A stretch of 64,000 nucleotides of DNA from Octopus vulgaris (taxonomy: Eukaryota). Positions 9,431 to 63,845 of the stretch are shown here, one piece after another. Where the stretch lies: assembly GCA_951406725.2 (NCBI GenBank), contig OX597820.1, positions 64,232,001 to 64,296,000 on the forward strand, given 5' to 3'. Each line of letters begins with the position of its first letter. The stretch's first letter is position 1. Made by a program: the position numbers and the translations under genes. The notes under the pieces were generated by a model, which ran no database searches, was not told the DNA's origin, and was given only the letters and a program-made list of their open reading frames with translations.

Positions 9431-11959
9431 ATGGCAATTGTGTACATTATTCCGAATTTTTTTACAATGTCTGGAAACATGAAAGTCAAGGTTCATCTTT
9501 TGCTATTCAAGTTGTAGCTGAAAATATTTTCCAGGTCTTTCTTGCCTCTTAACTAAGTCCGTTATCATACAGATATAGCTATTAGACATTTTTCATCAGA
9601 TCTATCAGCTGTATTTCTTCCTAGCGACCTACAATATATTGTGCTTTCAAAGTCCTCTTAGACAGGGGTACAAATGAGACAACTATTCACAACATTACCA
9701 AGAATTCGGAAACCGGAATGGTTATTAAAATATGCCAAACATTTGGAAAGAATCTGCACTATTTCACAAGATAACACTGGATTACCTGGACAGGAATTCC
9801 TTGATAAGATTTACAGGAATTGCTTGAAACTTGATGTCAGATAGGACTAGCAGCACTAGTCAAGTGCATTCTATATCCTGCCAATGTTAAATAAGAGTAC
9901 TTATCTGACGAAATGAGTTAGACCAAAGTGCAATTCTTCAAATTATCGACAAACATGCCATTTATTTGCAGAACAGCTGCCCGTTAGTTTTGTTAAAGTA
10001 TCGTTTCAATATGGTGAGTAATTATTTCCATCCGGTTTTATTCCTCCGTCAATCCATTTCTAATGACTGAGTTCTTTCACAAGGCAGTCGAAATCGAATC
10101 GAATCTCTTCCTTCATTAACGAACAGTTAGTTTACTGAACAAAAATCTATTTTTGGGTTTTCAGTGGAAGCATTTCTGTTATATATATATATATATATCC
10201 AAGCATTCCTATAAATCTATAGGCAACACTGTTGATCTGTAAAAATAGTTCACAATACTGCAAAACAACTAATTTAATCAAAGCCTTCATATTCACCGCT
10301 ACGTAGACTTAAAAAAATATAAAATCACCCCAGTTAGGCAATTGCCTGATTTTTAAAGCTTGGAGCAATGCAATGACTCATTATTAATGATTATGGTATA
10401 ATTATAAACAGGGAAAATTTTAACCATTGATCCGCCGATCGAAAAAAATGACGAACGAACTTAATCTATTTTCGAACCTCAGTGGTTTCTCCTCATCAAA
10501 GGCGTTTACATCATTCTAACAGTCTCCAGACAAACGAGCAGCCAAGCTGTTTATTTACTCAACAAATCCAGCAGTTACTCCACGAAGGAATACCTAATTT
10601 GCATACCGAAAGAAGTTTATATAAACTAAGAAATTTATGTAGCATATCCACGATACATGGATACCCACTGGTGACATCAACCCGTTTCGATGAAGTTGAC
10701 TTCAGTTTCCTGAAATAATCATTACCGTATCAATCAAAGCATTGCAAGTGCATATATTGATTAGTGCCGAAATCTCTGTTGACCAATGTCGCTCTCGCAA
10801 TCACCATATTCAATAAGGATGCTGAAAATAATGTTGCGAAAATAACCTATAAATTCTCTTCGAACCTATTTGTAATACAAAACCATTGAATACTGTGCAA
10901 CGCCGAATTGTCATATCTGTGATAGTGCGTATTAAATATCGTATAAGCGTCGGCTCAGAGCTATTATTAGTTTAATTTCTCCCTCGGTACCTGTATTGAA
11001 GTTCCAATTTGTGGTTGTGCTCCTCTCCTCTCGGCCTTCACTTTTACGTAAGATATAAAAATGGTCATATTCTTATGGGTGGTTTAACACCGAATAGCTC
11101 TGCGTCTAATCGGTCTTCAAATCGTTTTAAAATTCAAAGAATTTCTTCAGTATATTCCAAAGATAATATTTTATTTTTCACTTACAGCGATAAGTAATAT
11201 TGTATTCGAATTTGGTTGACACTCTGTCCTTATTTAATATCCTTGAATATAAAGTGTATGACATATACTCATTAATGGCGCAAAAGATATTGTATGGGAG
11301 CCAATATTTCGCATAGAGCATTACATACCAATGAAATTATAGAAATACAATTCATTTGTATCGTGATATATAACTTCTCAATGCAATAGTCTACGTGCTA
11401 TAAAACCAAATATGCATTCATTAAGAGCTATTCTGGTACATTAATATGGATTTAACAGATATTTTAACAAAGATAAAATAACCGAAGGCTGACTGGATCA
11501 GTCATCTATCTATAAGAATCCAAGCTTTCATGGATTCTCTTATAATAGAGAAACATGTTCTTTAAAATTGCGAATACAAGAAAAACCGAAATCCTCAATG
11601 TGGACAGAATTATTGAAGTTTGATATTGCACATTATATATGATGTATTTGATGTATAGTATATGATGCAAGGAAATAGAATATCATATAGATATATAAGT
11701 GTGTGTGTGGGGGGGTCTGTGTGTCTGCGTGAGTGTCTGTGTGTCTGTGTATGAAGGGAGAATTGTTTGTTTCTACAAAGAGGAACACGAACACAAAGTA
11801 TGAGTGCTTTTATATGTGTGGGGGTGTCTGTGTATCTATCTATCAATAGATATAATGGATAATAAAACCATTACACCTCATAGCTTACTGGTAAAGAACG
11901 GTCATATGTACGTGTGTGTGTAGAACGGTCCGTGTGTGTGTATCCGTCTTTCATCCGCC

Positions 11960-28530: not shown

Positions 28531-28651
28531 ATCATCATCATCATCATCGTCATCATCATCATCATCATCGTCATCATCGTCATCATCGTCATCATCTTCA
28601 TCATCGTCGTCGTAGTCGTCGACGTCGTCATCATCGTCATCATCATCATCG

Positions 28652-28713
<62 letters not shown>

Positions 28714-28820
28714 GTCATCATCGTCATCATCGTCATCATCTTCATCATCGTCGTCGTCGTCGTCGACGTCGTCATCATCGTCATCATCATCATCGTCATC
28801 ATCATCATTATCATCATCAC

Positions 28821-28857
<37 letters not shown>

Positions 28858-28936
28858 GTCATCATCGTCATCATCGTCATCATCGTCATCATCGTCGTCG
28901 TCATCATCGTCGTCATCATCGTCATCATCCTCATCG

Positions 28937-28976
<40 letters not shown>

Positions 28977-29025
28977 TATCATCATCATCATCATCATTAT
29001 TATTAAAATTATTATTATCATTATT
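28531..29025. repeat. Compound (ATC/GTC)n trinucleotide repeat with internal ~144-bp duplication
   Basis: The variant block ATCTTCATCATCGTCGTCGT.GTCGTCGACGTCGTC occurs twice (~28594 and ~28738). Confidence 0.95.
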
Positions 29026-29160
29026 AGATAATAATTCGTATGGTATACACCTGGTAACTTACCGGCACAGAACGTTCACTTTCATTGTTCACTTTCAGTG
29101 TTCGCTGTGTATTTGATTAATGAGAGAGACGTAAGGCGGAGGACACGAGAATGTTTATTG

Positions 29161-29266
29161 ATCACTACAATTGTTTCAACCCATCTTACATCGATTGTTT
29201 ATGGGTGGGATACTGAATAACTGGTTTAGGAGTATGTATCAATGTAAACGTATCACTTCAGGTGAT
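29161..29266 (-). ncRNA. Type I hammerhead ribozyme (degenerate), left arm of palindrome
   Basis: Minus strand reads AUCAC-CUGAAG[U]-~75 nt-GAAA-CAAUUG-UA^GUGAU, with perfect stem I, palindromic stem III and an A9->U change. Confidence 0.65.
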
Positions 29267-29565
29267 TATAAGATGTATCTCGTGTTTTCTTTTCGGTTTG
29301 TGTATAGAAAAGCAGCCAATTAAAACAAAGAGCTTCATTATTATAGAAGATCAATAAAAATCTGATGCAGAAAGAAACAAATGCACAATACAGGGAAAGG
29401 TATTTTGATACTCTTTTCACTGTATGTTGTATTTGTTCCTTTTTGCATTTGCTTTTATTTTTTGTATCTGATTTTTATTGATCATCTACAATAACGAAGA
29501 TATATCCTTTAATTTGCTGCTTTTGTATAAATATACCGAGAAGAATACTCGGGGATCAGCTCGCA

Positions 29566-29669
29566 ATCACTTGAAGAGACAGATCTACACCGACGGATAC
29601 TCCCCAATTATTTGCCAGTATCTCACCCGTGAAGACTCGATGCTAGATGGATCGACACTATGTAGTGAT
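29566..29669 (+). ncRNA. Type I hammerhead ribozyme (more degenerate), right arm of palindrome
   Basis: AUCAC-[U]UGAAGA-GA...UC-GA[C]A-CUAUG-UA^GUGAU. Together with the left arm it restores the consensus CUGAAGA...GAAA. Confidence 0.55.
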
Positions 29670-30085
29670 CAATAATCTCGTATCTTCCATCTTCCGTCTC
29701 TCTCATATAGACATAAGAATATTTCTTTCCAAACCTCTAATCTACTGATGAGAAGCTTACATCGCTGCCCTGATATTTTGTACTTTTAGTTATTATCTAT
29801 GTACATGTCTTAGTGTTCATAAAATATCGATGGCATTACCGTGGCAAATATATAATGTTACATATACATTCAACAAGAAAGACATTAAAAGCATGGAGTT
29901 TTCAACTTGTAAGTCTGTGCTTTAAATTTCAAGGACGTTCCTGTATTTCTCTGTTGCAAAATTAGATTGTTCGTTGTAGACAAATTTTTAATAGGCAACA
30001 AACTTTTACACTTTTGTACGTACATACCACATAAATACTAACATGCATGCTTACCTAAATACGTACGTACGCACGTATATTGACA

Positions 30086-38153: not shown

Positions 38154-38719
38154 GTGTATGTATTATAAGACACAGATTAAGCTAATCTGTAATCAAGAGC
38201 CTTCAGTCTATGATAATCCTACGTTTTCGTTCAGGTATTGTTTATCTCCCACTATTTTATATAAACTAGTCTTGCACGAAAAGTAATCGTATTAACGATA
38301 GGTGTTAATTTTTCTTCTCCCATAAGTGAGACATATATATTTTTTTATTGAGAATATTCAGCATACGTAATGTGGTACACCTCCCCAAGCACATATGGCA
38401 GTCACCTGGAAAACAAAGTGAAGGAGTTGTCCTTATTCAAAATTTTAACAAGATTTCCTACAAATGAGCCAATTGTTTCCAACAAAATATGAAAACTTCG
38501 TCAATTGACACGATATGAGCGCAACACTTACCAAACCAACAAAATCAACAGCAAAAATAATACTTATAATAGTAATAAAACGTTTATTATGATTAATCGT
38601 TTGTCATCATAATCATCACCATCATTATTATTATCATTATTATTACTATCATCATAATCATCATCATCATCATTGAGTGAGTGAGAGGGCAGCCCACGCG
38701 ATGAAAGTGATGCTGGATA

Positions 38720-39100
38720 CTCTTTGGTAATTGAATAGTTCAATCATGGGAAAATGGATGTTTCGCTCGTTATCCTTAAATGATCCTTGTTTAAGGACCT
38801 TTGGAGCGGAATGGGTTACTCAACCTGAAAGAAGACCAATATACGAAGACCAATATACCGGTCATGATTATTTGTTCGATACGTGTGCAACACGCACACT
38901 CATCACAACCATATGTCCGCATCATGGCGACCTCAATTCAAGACAAAACAGCACACGAACATGCACGTGGGGCCCCAGTTAGAATTTTCTTTCAGGTTGA
39001 GTATCCCATTCCGCTCCAAAGGTCCTTAAACAAGGATCGTTTAAGGATAACGAGCGAAACATCCATGTTCCCATGATTGAACTATTCAATTACCAAAGAG
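38720..39100. repeat. Inverted repeat with 114-bp arms (3 mismatches) and 153-bp spacer
   Basis: 38720-38833 pairs with 38987-39100; both outer flanks are TA. Confidence 0.95.
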
Positions 39101-39384
39101 TACATCTCTCAACACATGGCTATGATGCTCCCCAAATACTTCTGCTCATGATCAGAGATAAACATATCGTCAATCACTAAGAAAACATGCTAAACTGATT
39201 ATGGTCAAGTAACTGACAAGCAAATTCGTGGTATTGAACAGAATATTTACTGTAGCCCATGTTTTATTCCGCGACGAAATATGTACGTTATACACAACGG
39301 AACATGTACATAATAACAGTTGTAATCAATTAACATCAGCTATTGTTATGTTAGTATTGCGTCAGGGCATTAACATGTCGGAAT

Positions 39385-61517: not shown

Positions 61518-63845
61518 TTATTGCTTATTTAGCTTGGGTTCGAATTTATCAATAAAATTCTTTTCTCTGATTTTCCTCTCGATTTCACTTGGGCTGTGTA
61601 ATTTGTAGAATGGAAATATTATATATATTTTCCGACCACATGTTGCTAGGTGGTTACTCAAAGGTATCTGACGGACCTCTGGGTCTCTAATCTGTTGCCG
61701 GTGTACACGTGAGCGTTCTAATAGTGCGTTTCCCGTCTGACCTACATATATTTCTTCACAATTTGGGCATTTGATGCAGTAAATTAAATTTCTGCTTTTG
61801 CAGTTCATATTCGCGTTTGTGAATATTTTCCCGGTTTTTGTGTTTATATATTGACCGGTATGTATGAATTGGCATGTGCCACATCGGCTATCATTGCATT
61901 TAGATACCGTGAATGTTTGGTCTTTGTTGCTGAGGTCAAATTTTGCCTTTGTTAGTAATGTTTTCAAGTTTTTAGGCTGTCTTTTACTAAGCACCATAGC
62001 TCGATCCTTGATTATGTCTTTTAATTCATTACTTTGGGCAATGATTGGTAGGTTTGCTTTGGCAATGTTGAAGATATTCTGGTGACATGGGTTGTGTGTC
62101 ACTATGAATGGTATGACTTGTTCTTGTTTTCCTCTTCCTTGGGTTGTCCTAAGTTGTTGTATAGGTATTTTTATAGCCCGCTGTATGCCATTTTCTATAA
62201 GTAGAGATGGGTATTTTTGTTTGAGCAAAAATTCTCTTAGTTCTATTAGGCGTTTGTTCCTGATATTTGCATCTTCTACAATAGTACAAATTCTTCTGGC
62301 TAGGCAGTATGGGATGTTACGTTTTGTATGTGGTGGATGGCACGACTTAAAATTTAGGTATTGATGTGTGTCTGTGTGTTTATAGTATATATCTGTGGTG
62401 ATGGTGGTGTCTTTTTTAATTACCATTATATCCAGGAATGGTAATTTGGTACTACTCATCTCCTTTGTAAATTTGAGAGATGGGTGTAGGTTGTTCAGGA
62501 GGATATTGAACTCTTCCAGAGTATTTAGAGATTCTGTCCAGATTATGAAACAGTCGTCTAGGTATCTCTTCCATGCCTTTTCAATATACTTTCTAAATCC
62601 AGTGCCATAGTTTACCTCCACCTCTTGGTAGAGTTGTTCTTCTAAGTATCCCATTACAGAGTTGGCGTAAACGGGAGCAAACCTCGTTCCCATCGCCGTG
62701 CCTCTAATTTGGATGTAATTCTTTCCATTGAAGAAGAATGTGTTATTTTCTAGAATAAGTTTGACTGTGTCTAATATAAATGGCACTGTGAATCTGCTGG
62801 GAATCACTTCTCTATGTTTTTCTAACCAGTATTTAATCGCCTTTATTCCTAAATCGTGTGGAATATTGGTGTAGAGGCTTACCACATCAAAACTTAGTAA
62901 AACTGAATTTGTTTCTGTTGTTTTGGGAAGATGGGACAGGAAGTCGATGTCATCCCTGATGAAACTTGGTATGTAAGTACATAGTGGTTTCAAAACAATG
63001 TCAATAAAATTGCTTAGACGGTGTGTAGGGCATGCTGGACCAGCTATAATAGGTCTAAGTTTTAGGTCTTTTGGATGTAATAATTTTATGTACTCACTTT
63101 CTTGTTCTTTTACTGCCTGTTGAATGTTTTTTGATTTGTGTATTTTTGGTAAGCCGTAGAAGTTGCTGGGTTTTGGTTCAAAATTGGTGATGTAGTCTTT
63201 TTCATTATCCGTAAGTGAGTTGTGGTGTGTTGAAATCAGGTTGTTGATCTTTTTCATGATGTGGTGGTCTATATTTGCGGGTATTTCACAATAGAAGGTT
63301 GTATCCTTCAGTTGGTCTTCAACCAAATCCTTATAGTATTCGGTATCCATAATAACAATTGCACCACCTTTACCTGCTTGTTTAATTATTATTGTTTGAT
63401 CGTTTTGTATACGTTTACATGCAGACATCTCTGATTTGCTAATGTTTGGCCTAACATTGGTATTGCGTCTAAGGGGAAATTTAGACAGGATATCAATGTA
63501 TTGGTCAAGGTAGTTATTTCTTCCTTTTGGTGGGGTGAAATTTGATTTATTCCTTACTAGGGATTCATCAATCTCATTACTTTTGTTAGCGAAGAATTCT
63601 ACAAGTCGTAATTTTCGACAGAATTTTTGGATATCCTCCTTTAATTCTTGGTGGTTGGCTGTTGGTGTAGGTGTGAATTTCAGTCCTTTTGACAGAAGTT
63701 GGATTTCATCATTGTCAAGATCTCTTTTTGATAAATTAATTATTTTAGGATCTATACGTTCAGTTGTTTGGGGTATGTTTCCTCTTCGATTTTTTCTTTC
63801 TCCGGTGTTTGTTGTCCTGACGTAAAAAAATGGATTTTTTTCTGG
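61518..63845 (-). CDS. Penelope-like reverse transcriptase + GIY-YIG endonuclease (775-codon open frame; first ATG at 63428)
   Basis: IINLS..E..LLSKGLKFTPTP lies upstream of the ATG. Then FYGLPKIHK, LRPII, FDVVSLYTNI, GTAMG, RYLDD, PFLD, CNDSRCGTC (Cys-rich Neptune-type linker), LIYCIKC..IYVGQT, R..HR, E..I..F.P.LN. Confidence 0.93.
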   Translation of the reverse strand, partial: PEKNPFFYVRTTNTGERKNRRGNIPQTTERIDPKIINLSKRDLDNDEIQLLSKGLKFTPTPTANHQELKEDIQKFCRKLRLVEFFANKSNEIDESLVRNKSNFTPPKGRNNYLDQYIDILSKFPLRRNTNVRPNISKSEMSACKRIQNDQTIIIKQAGKGGAIVIMDTEYYKDLVEDQLKDTTFYCEIPANIDHHIMKKINNLISTHHNSLTDNEKDYITNFEPKPSNFYGLPKIHKSKNIQQAVKEQESEYIKLLHPKDLKLRPIIAGPACPTHRLSNFIDIVLKPLCTYIPSFIRDDIDFLSHLPKTTETNSVLLSFDVVSLYTNIPHDLGIKAIKYWLEKHREVIPSRFTVPFILDTVKLILENNTFFFNGKNYIQIRGTAMGTRFAPVYANSVMGYLEEQLYQEVEVNYGTGFRKYIEKAWKRYLDDCFIIWTESLNTLEEFNILLNNLHPSLKFTKEMSSTKLPFLDIMVIKKDTTITTDIYYKHTDTHQYLNFKSCHPPHTKRNIPYCLARRICTIVEDANIRNKRLIELREFLLKQKYPSLLIENGIQRAIKIPIQQLRTTQGRGKQEQVIPFIVTHNPCHQNIFNIAKANLPIIAQSNELKDIIKDRAMVLSKRQPKNLKTLLTKAKFDLSNKDQTFTVSKCNDSRCGTCQFIHTGQYINTKTGKIFTNANMNCKSRNLIYCIKCPNCEEIYVGQTGNALLERSRVHRQQIRDPEVRQIPLSNHLATCGRKIYIIFPFYKLHSPSEIERKIREKNFIDKFEPKLNKQ

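What the first reader, a model, noticed from the sequence alone, without database searches (positions are those of the whole stretch)
29121..29705. ~585-bp almost loop-less palindrome with a hammerhead ribozyme in each arm
Seen: the arms pair from the ends to a centre of a few nucleotides. Each arm holds AUCAC-core-~75 nt-GAAA-stem III-UA^GUGAU, one per strand, pointing outward. The arms carry different core mutations, and together they restore a perfect CUGAAGA..GAAACAAUUGUA hammerhead. A transcript of either strand would be a rod with a ribozyme paired to its own antisense. Inference: most simply an inverted pLTR pair from a Penelope-like insertion. If the palindrome is itself repeated in the genome, it would be an undescribed non-autonomous fold-back ribozyme element.
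Basis: partly seen in the sequence, partly recalled or inferred. Interest (0 to 1): 0.7.

Follow-up and report, generated by a model that had tools for sequence, protein, structure and literature searches.

The report
Head-to-head Penelope retrotransposon ends, decayed hammerheads
This 585-base palindrome is two decayed, back-to-back copies of the tail end of a common Penelope-like jumping gene, each with a mutated hammerhead ribozyme, likely left by one old insertion of a kind already described and seen at many other places in this genome.

Summary
The palindrome and both hammerhead remnants are real. Each arm is the 3' end (pLTR) of a high-copy Penelope-like retrotransposon (PLE): longer copies run on into a GIY-YIG-like endonuclease and an RT. 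Head-to-head pairs are routine in this family: 18 of 45 motif-picked and 10 of 40 similarity-picked loci, with differing junctions. One other palindrome has the same centre but belongs to another subfamily, and the window's deletion marker occurs nowhere else. So the palindrome did not detectably spread as a unit. Core bases are about as mutated as the flanks; both arms are broken and would pair with each other. The anatomy, including paired opposite-strand hammerheads 100-700 bp apart, is in print (PMC4209133, PMC3846280, PMC8557442). One useful by-product: the tail sits on exactly one arm in 30 of 34 pairs, never on both, and four pairs share no bases. This favours two priming events over simple fold-back. 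Verdict: ordinary PLE insertion relic, low interest.

The parts
29029..29109 (-). PLE 'tail': extension beyond the pLTR end, present on the left arm only
   Evidence: Matches family consensus positions 1180-1249. 3' ends of copies pile up at about 1170-1179 and 1240-1249.
29110..29404 (-). Left arm: 5'-truncated 3' end (pLTR / 3' UTR) of a Penelope-like element, with a private 22-nt deletion
   Evidence: 79% to consensus 866-1249 including gaps; 13.5% substitutions against a family median of 12.9%.
29161..29266 (-). Decayed type I hammerhead of the left arm (A9 to U); the ancestral cut would fall between 29166 and 29165
29400..29411 (.). Head-to-head junction at a short A/T quasi-palindrome just 5' of the U-tract of the element
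   Evidence: spanned by an independent contig; the same site is used by L031.
29404..29706 (+). Right arm: second 5'-truncated copy of the same pLTR, no tail, with its own 22-nt deletion
   Evidence: 74% to consensus 855-1169 including gaps; 14.1% substitutions.
29566..29669 (+). Decayed type I hammerhead of the right arm (C3 to U, A14 to C, loop III shortened)
28532..29028 (.). (ATC)n / ATT microsatellite next to the tail end, the likely target of the insertion
   Evidence: 90 of 113 family 3' ends have a simple repeat within 40 nt, against 14% of random 40-mers.

Best explanation
The palindrome is two 5'-truncated copies of the 3' end of a Penelope-like retrotransposon joined head to head, likely made in a single old insertion and likely without function today. 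Shown: the family, its RT and endonuclease-like frames, the one-sided tail, frequent head-to-head pairs with variable junctions, and core bases decaying like the flanks. Inferred mechanism (about 55%): the PLE protein nicked both strands of an A/T-rich microsatellite. It primed two reverse transcriptions on the element RNA, one from the tail end and one from the pLTR end. Both stalled early, here both just past the U-tract, and the two cDNA ends were joined through a few complementary bases. The hammerheads came along as part of the pLTR and then mutated. If the locus is transcribed, each would be sequestered by the opposite arm.
For: The arm is a high-copy repeat: 1750 first-look candidates and 161 exact matches to a 24-mer, 0 for the control. 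Longer copies continue into frames similar to full-length RT plus GIY-YIG proteins (E 1e-27 and 3e-26); L147 covers residues 27-697 of P0003 and ends in this pLTR. Head-to-head partners occur in 18 of 45 and 10 of 40 loci. Both arms are of the same subfamily type in 12 of 12 pairs that could be typed. The tail is on exactly one arm in 30 of 34 pairs and on both in none (6.6 expected if independent, p 4e-6). The tail arm starts downstream of its partner in 21 of 30; 4 pairs share no consensus base; 17 of 34 junctions overlap by 2-14 nt. Core 44 of 516 changed against 55.8 expected from base-matched sites; 3' flank 8.2%. Published: an inverted 5'-truncated copy plus a one-sided tail (PMC8557442, PMC3846280); dual opposite-strand hammerheads 100-700 bp apart (PMC4209133); both strands cut and extended, two RT start sites bounding the tail (PMC11167929).
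Against: The window's two arms are no closer to each other (77%) than to other copies (partner at about rank 46 of 85 and 41 of 83) and group only weakly in the tree (33/81), so a single event is inferred, not shown. No upstream direct pLTR was found in 9 long loci. Pfam hits for RT and GIY-YIG are below the curated cut-offs and only on relatives; the family's own fragments hit nothing relevant. No Rfam hammerhead match. For a symmetric case like this one, self-priming fold-back cannot be excluded. Only about 100 of an estimated 1,200-1,800 copies were examined.
Confidence: 0.9

Rival explanations
1. Same identity, other mechanism: the first cDNA (or an antisense template) folded back on the short palindrome at its end and primed its own copying, as proposed in PMC3846280.
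For: The window, L031, L085 and L137 are near-symmetric, and the junctions of the window, L031 and L085 sit at short palindromes. Here the tail arm contains the whole other arm, as fold-back predicts.
Against: In 21 of 30 one-tailed pairs the tail arm starts downstream of its partner, and in 4 the arms share no base; a fold-back copy cannot add sequence that its template lacks. It could still hold for the symmetric minority.
Confidence: 0.3
2. The palindrome is a non-autonomous fold-back element that was itself transcribed and re-inserted by PLE machinery.
For: A second full palindrome with the same centre exists (L031). A-to-G changes in the window favour one strand 13:4 (p 0.049 uncorrected), as editing of a hairpin RNA would give. 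The two 22-nt deletions keep the arms in register.
Against: L031 lies across a 100/99 split from the window's arms, and its arms share their own variants. The left-arm deletion junction matches only the window at up to 3 mismatches. No hit spans the centre among 40 of 78 candidates scored, and none is full length among 40 of 1750. Two more of 35 strand tests also fell under 0.05, and tail-less arms show no T-to-C excess (30 of 904 against about 3.5% in single copies).
Confidence: 0.03
3. A later event, not the insertion, made the inversion: a second PLE copy homed into the first one's A/T-rich pLTR site, or a DNA-level fold-back duplicated it.
For: PLE endonucleases cut A/T-rich sites, including in their own pLTR (PMC11167929). 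The window's arms share few private changes (7 substitutions against a mean of 4.4 with other copies).
Against: Independent insertions would not put the tail on exactly one arm in 30 of 34 pairs, nor match subfamily type in 12 of 12. Both arms are equally old (13.5% and 14.1%).
Confidence: 0.05
4. The relic was co-opted as a hairpin RNA (small-RNA source or editing substrate).
For: It would form a very stable rod on either strand.
Against: No excess arm similarity. Arm mismatches give G-U wobbles about equally on both strands (16 and 19, counted). Divergence is typical of the family.
Confidence: 0.02

Closest known systems
EN+ Penelope-like elements with inverted pLTR and one-sided tail (PMC8557442 Fig. 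2 legend; PMC3846280)
   Same: 5'-truncated copy with an inverted copy at its 5' end, head-to-head, short palindrome or overlap at the junction, tail at one end, microsatellite targets, RT followed by a C-terminal GIY-YIG-like domain.
   Different: The tail is about 70-80 nt rather than 30-40. Here both arms are truncated at nearly the same place, giving a bare palindrome with no ORF.
PLE type I hammerheads (PMC4209133), including dual motifs 100-700 bp apart on opposite strands in Schistosoma mansoni
   Same: Type I topology, canonical core, 2-bp helix III with a palindromic 4-nt loop, location in the pLTR, opposite-strand pairs.
   Different: Helix II region is 77 nt with a predicted side branch, far longer than the 4-8 bp described in the passages read. 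No Rfam model matches.
Non-LTR retrozymes (bioRxiv 10.64898/2026.07.22.740005; PMC7229834, listing only)
   Same: Non-coding, PLE-related, type I hammerhead.
   Different: Retrozymes are head-to-tail tandem repeats; this is a head-to-head pair on opposite strands with broken cores.
LINE-1 twin priming (recalled, not read here)
   Same: Two primers from the two target strands, joined by microhomology.
   Different: In L1 the second primer starts inside the RNA and inverts an upstream part; here both arms start at the 3' end, so the end is duplicated.

Membership tests
EN+ Penelope-like element (parent family) | PLE-type RT in the same element | tested here: met
   L105 frame against P0005: 29% over 161 aa, E 1e-27. 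P0005 hits RVT_1 at E 0.00086, below the cut-off. L147 covers P0003 residues 27-697 and ends in this pLTR.
EN+ Penelope-like element (parent family) | C-terminal GIY-YIG endonuclease just upstream of the 3' pLTR | tested here: met
   274-aa open frame of L078 aligns to P0003 residues 494-677, E 3e-26. P0003 hits GIY-YIG at E 0.015, below the cut-off. The fragment itself has no relevant Pfam hit.
EN+ Penelope-like element (parent family) | Hammerhead in the pLTR | tested here: met
   Consensus core and stems; 15 of 88 arms keep core and flanking pairs.
EN+ Penelope-like element (parent family) | Inverted 5'-truncated copy at the 5' end; tail at one end | tested here: met
EN+ Penelope-like element (parent family) | A/T-rich or microsatellite targets | tested here: met
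   90 of 113 3' ends against 14% of random 40-mers.
EN+ Penelope-like element (parent family) | Direct partial tandem (pLTR-ORF-pLTR) | tested here: inconclusive
   None of 9 long loci has an upstream pLTR; all may be 5'-truncated.
Neptune clade | Cys-rich Zn-finger-like linker before the endonuclease, and RT placement with named Neptune elements | tested here: inconclusive
   A four-Cys linker is present in natural frames of L018, L067 and relatives. No tree with named references was made; the Neptune label rests partly on recalled motifs.
Active type I hammerhead (the two window arms) | Intact CUGANGA, GAAA and UH core | tested here: not met
   Left A9 to U; right C3 to U and A14 to C.
Active type I hammerhead (the two window arms) | Can fold as a hammerhead in context | tested here: not met
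   Predicted pairs within either motif 0.0; 85-89 of about 110 nt paired to the other arm (equilibrium prediction only).
Type I hammerhead (family consensus) | Covariation in stems | tested here: inconclusive
   33 two-sided changes in 2606 cells, most at CpG pairs; 349 broken. Copies decay after insertion, so little covariation is expected.
Type I hammerhead (family consensus) | Match to an Rfam hammerhead model | tested here: not met
   0 at gathering score in 10 loci; none among the 150 of 193 window matches listed. The long helix II may explain this.
Type I hammerhead (family consensus) | Self-cleavage | not testable with these tools
   Needs an in vitro assay.
Non-autonomous fold-back element | Several copies sharing ends, centre and private variants | tested here: not met
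   the sample is partial.
Non-LTR retrozyme | Head-to-tail tandem units each with a hammerhead | tested here: not met
   The window holds two units on opposite strands and no other full copy.

The most novel reading that the evidence does not exclude
The symmetric pLTR palindrome is a rare non-autonomous element of its own: transcribed as a rod, edited, and re-inserted by the PLE protein, with sister copies hidden among the family copies not examined.
Probability: 0.03. Interest if true: 0.65.

Novelty: new member of a known kind. Interest (0 to 1): 0.17.

Why it matters
The locus itself matters little: it is a decayed example of a described PLE insertion shape. Two things could interest PLE specialists. 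First, the family gives counts that bear on an open question, how PLE inverted repeats form: tail on exactly one arm in 30 of 34 pairs, never both, and arms that share no sequence. This fits the two RT start sites and two-strand extension seen in vitro (PMC11167929) better than self-priming alone. One search (Penelope + twin priming + inverted) listed two papers, neither on this by title or abstract; subscription papers were not searched. Second, the ancestral hammerhead has an unusually long, branched helix II that Rfam models miss. Had the palindrome been mobile as a unit, it would have been a new kind of ribozyme element, but the evidence is against that.

Tried and rejected
Rfam: no hammerhead. 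Two same-strand motif pairs 3.5-3.8 kb apart were not pLTR-ORF-pLTR units: L082 is a tandem duplication, L083 an LTR-retrotransposon fragment with PLE pieces beside it. Shared 22-nt deletion as proof of one template: rejected; the deletions align best 11 nt apart (984-1005 and 995-1016). A-to-I editing trace: not supported after controls. Selection for pairing: no strand bias in wobbles. Centre patterns: 3 matches against 3 control (1 real), 1 against 0 (L031 again), 9 against 3 (2 family palindromes with other centres); these exact patterns miss most diverged copies and missed the window itself. Expression: no RNA holder listed; the two guessed-RNA runs gave only short pieces that run on into other copies, so no verdict. 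Target-site duplication: none seen by eye. Host gene: none evident among long frames; not a gene search. Earlier findings: none. The literature search with 'octopus' was a guess from genome size and repeat style and was not tested.

Full report
Observation. The palindrome is real. The arms align at 202 of 275 columns (best shuffle score 43 against 253), and either strand folds as one rod (z -16 and -25). A contig from an independent run covers 29333-29676 across the centre with one difference. Each arm holds a type I hammerhead remnant pointing outward. The left (minus strand, 29161-29266) has A9 changed to U; the right (plus strand, 29566-29669) has C3 to U, A14 to C and a shortened loop III. 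In the full-length RNA each motif is predicted to pair with the other arm and not with itself.

What the arm is. The window lies in G000, a 2.8-Gb genome. The arm is a dispersed repeat: 1750 first-look candidates, 40 scored, and 161 exact matches to a 24-nt motif against 0 for the control. With 8.5-10% change per site this implies about 1,200-1,800 copies (my estimate). Aligned copies extend upstream of the arm into a coding region. A natural 274-aa frame (L078) matches six long proteins and aligns to the C-terminal part of P0003 (E 3e-26). Further upstream, L105 matches the RT region of P0005 (E 1e-27), and the extended locus L147 covers residues 27-697 of P0003 before ending in this same 3' sequence. 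Pfam support is weak and indirect: RVT_1 and GIY-YIG hits on relatives are below the cut-offs, and the family's fragments hit nothing relevant. Downstream of the arm, copies end at two places about 70 nt apart, the PLE 'tail'. The window has the tail on the left only (29029-29109). 90 of 113 3' ends abut a simple repeat, against 14% of random 40-mers. The arm is therefore the pLTR of an EN+ Penelope-like element, probably Neptune-like; that clade label was not tested by a tree.

Is the palindrome itself repeated? I mapped loci to a script-built consensus. Set A was the 40 places scored, the window included. Set B was 45 loci from the 161 motif matches: the first 30 listed (five merged or dropped as duplicates, two re-fetched as long loci) plus 18 that I chose for the window's motif variant. 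Head-to-head partners within 200 nt were found in 10 of 40 and 18 of 45 loci. L078 is a further case that the rule missed; in L034 and L064 the partner is an internal piece. Junctions fall all along the element. Near-symmetric cases are the window, L031, L085 and L137. Only L031 shares the window's centre. A tree of 84 arms puts the window's arms and L031's arms on opposite sides of a 100/99 split, and L031's arms share their own variants; the bootstrap had not fully settled. The left-arm deletion junction matches only the window at up to 3 mismatches. A search with the centre gave no hit spanning it among 40 of 78 candidates. In set A, 5' ends pile up at consensus 845-875, just past a U-tract, although that set is biased by the query; a stall site would explain two palindromes with one centre. 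The sample is about 100 copies, so a rare sister copy is not excluded.

Selection. In 43 arms not picked on the motif, core bases differ at 44 of 516 sites (55.8 expected from base-matched non-CpG sites; 3' flank 8.2%), and 14 of 43 keep a whole core, as chance decay predicts. The window's arms are 13.5% and 14.1% from consensus (family median 12.9%) and 77% identical, mid-rank among other copies. A 13:4 strand bias in A-to-G changes (p 0.049) did not survive controls: two more of 35 tests were as low, and tail-less arms show no matching excess. Tail arms show an unexplained A-to-G excess (40 of 739 against about 3.1% in single copies, p 0.003).

Mechanism. Among 34 head-to-head pairs the tail is on one arm in 30, on neither in 4 and on both in none (expected 16.8, 10.6, 6.6; p 4e-6). 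The tail arm starts downstream of its partner in 21 of 30, four pairs share no consensus base, and 17 of 34 junctions overlap by 2-14 nt (L031 is mis-sorted there as asymmetric because of a deletion). Both arms are of the same subfamily type in 12 of 12 typed pairs. A fold-back copy cannot hold sequence absent from its template, so both arms must usually be copied from RNA. The likely route (inferred) is two primers from the two nicked target strands, one starting at the tail end and one at the pLTR end, joined by microhomology. This fits an in vitro PLE that cuts and extends both strands and has two RT start sites bounding the tail, with no difference in start site between strands (PMC11167929; passages and second half of the main text read). 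For symmetric cases such as this one, self-priming (PMC3846280, passages) remains possible.

Comparison with print. PMC8557442 (passages) describes an inverted 5'-truncated copy at the 5' end and a 30-40 bp tail often at one end. PMC3846280 calls head-to-head the most frequent arrangement, with palindromes at the junction. PMC4209133 (part 1 of 4 and passages) reports dual hammerheads 100-700 bp apart on opposite strands, and short palindromic helix III loops that need a dimer. The retrozyme preprint (part 1 of 5) defines retrozymes as tandem repeats. No supplements were read; they may list long-helix-II PLE hammerheads. Searches listed no paper on a mobile palindromic ribozyme element or on this family by title or abstract; the library lacks most subscription papers.

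Verdict. Observation confirmed. An ordinary, decayed head-to-head PLE insertion (0.9); new member of a known kind; interest 0.17. The mobile-palindrome reading stands at about 0.03.

Noticed in passing
window 61900-63300, minus strand: A 466-aa stop-free frame of a different Penelope-like RT (weak match to P0001-P0006; frame), apparently much younger than the family studied.
   Followed up: partly
window 38718-39102: Inverted repeat with 116-nt arms at 97% identity around a 153-nt spacer; looks like a MITE or another inverted element end.
   Followed up: no
window 11872-11904, minus strand: 33-nt match to the tail of the same PLE family.
   Followed up: no
window 29255-29300 and 29545-29570: Both arms carry a deletion of exactly 22 nt, best aligned 11 nt apart, which keeps the rod in register. 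Deletions of 8-48 nt are common in this region among 83 copies, so chance is possible.
   Followed up: partly
tail-bearing arms of 30 inverted pairs in G000: A-to-G excess on the sense strand (5.4% against 3.1%, p 0.003), in paired and unpaired parts alike, not mirrored in partner arms. Unexplained; may reflect subfamily or sampling bias.
   Followed up: partly
L004 2041-2281 and 2921-3201; L025 312-981; L012 348-783; L010 733-941; L011 1804-2025; L139; L141: Many other near loop-less palindromes that do not match this family lie near the loci; my hammerhead regex found none in the six scanned. Fold-back repeats are common in this genome.
   Followed up: partly
family hammerhead, e.g. L080 and L074: Helix II region of 77 nt with a predicted three-way branch; 15 of 88 arms keep core and flanking pairs; not matched by Rfam.
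   Followed up: partly
window 29064-29074, minus strand: The tail holds a GTAAGT splice-donor-like motif (read); PLEs are reported to have a 5'-UTR intron that spans the pLTR boundary (PMC8557442).
   Followed up: no
L075, L047: Two separate head-to-head pairs from different subfamilies or sister families within 1 kb, suggesting repeated insertion at the same microsatellite sites.
   Followed up: no
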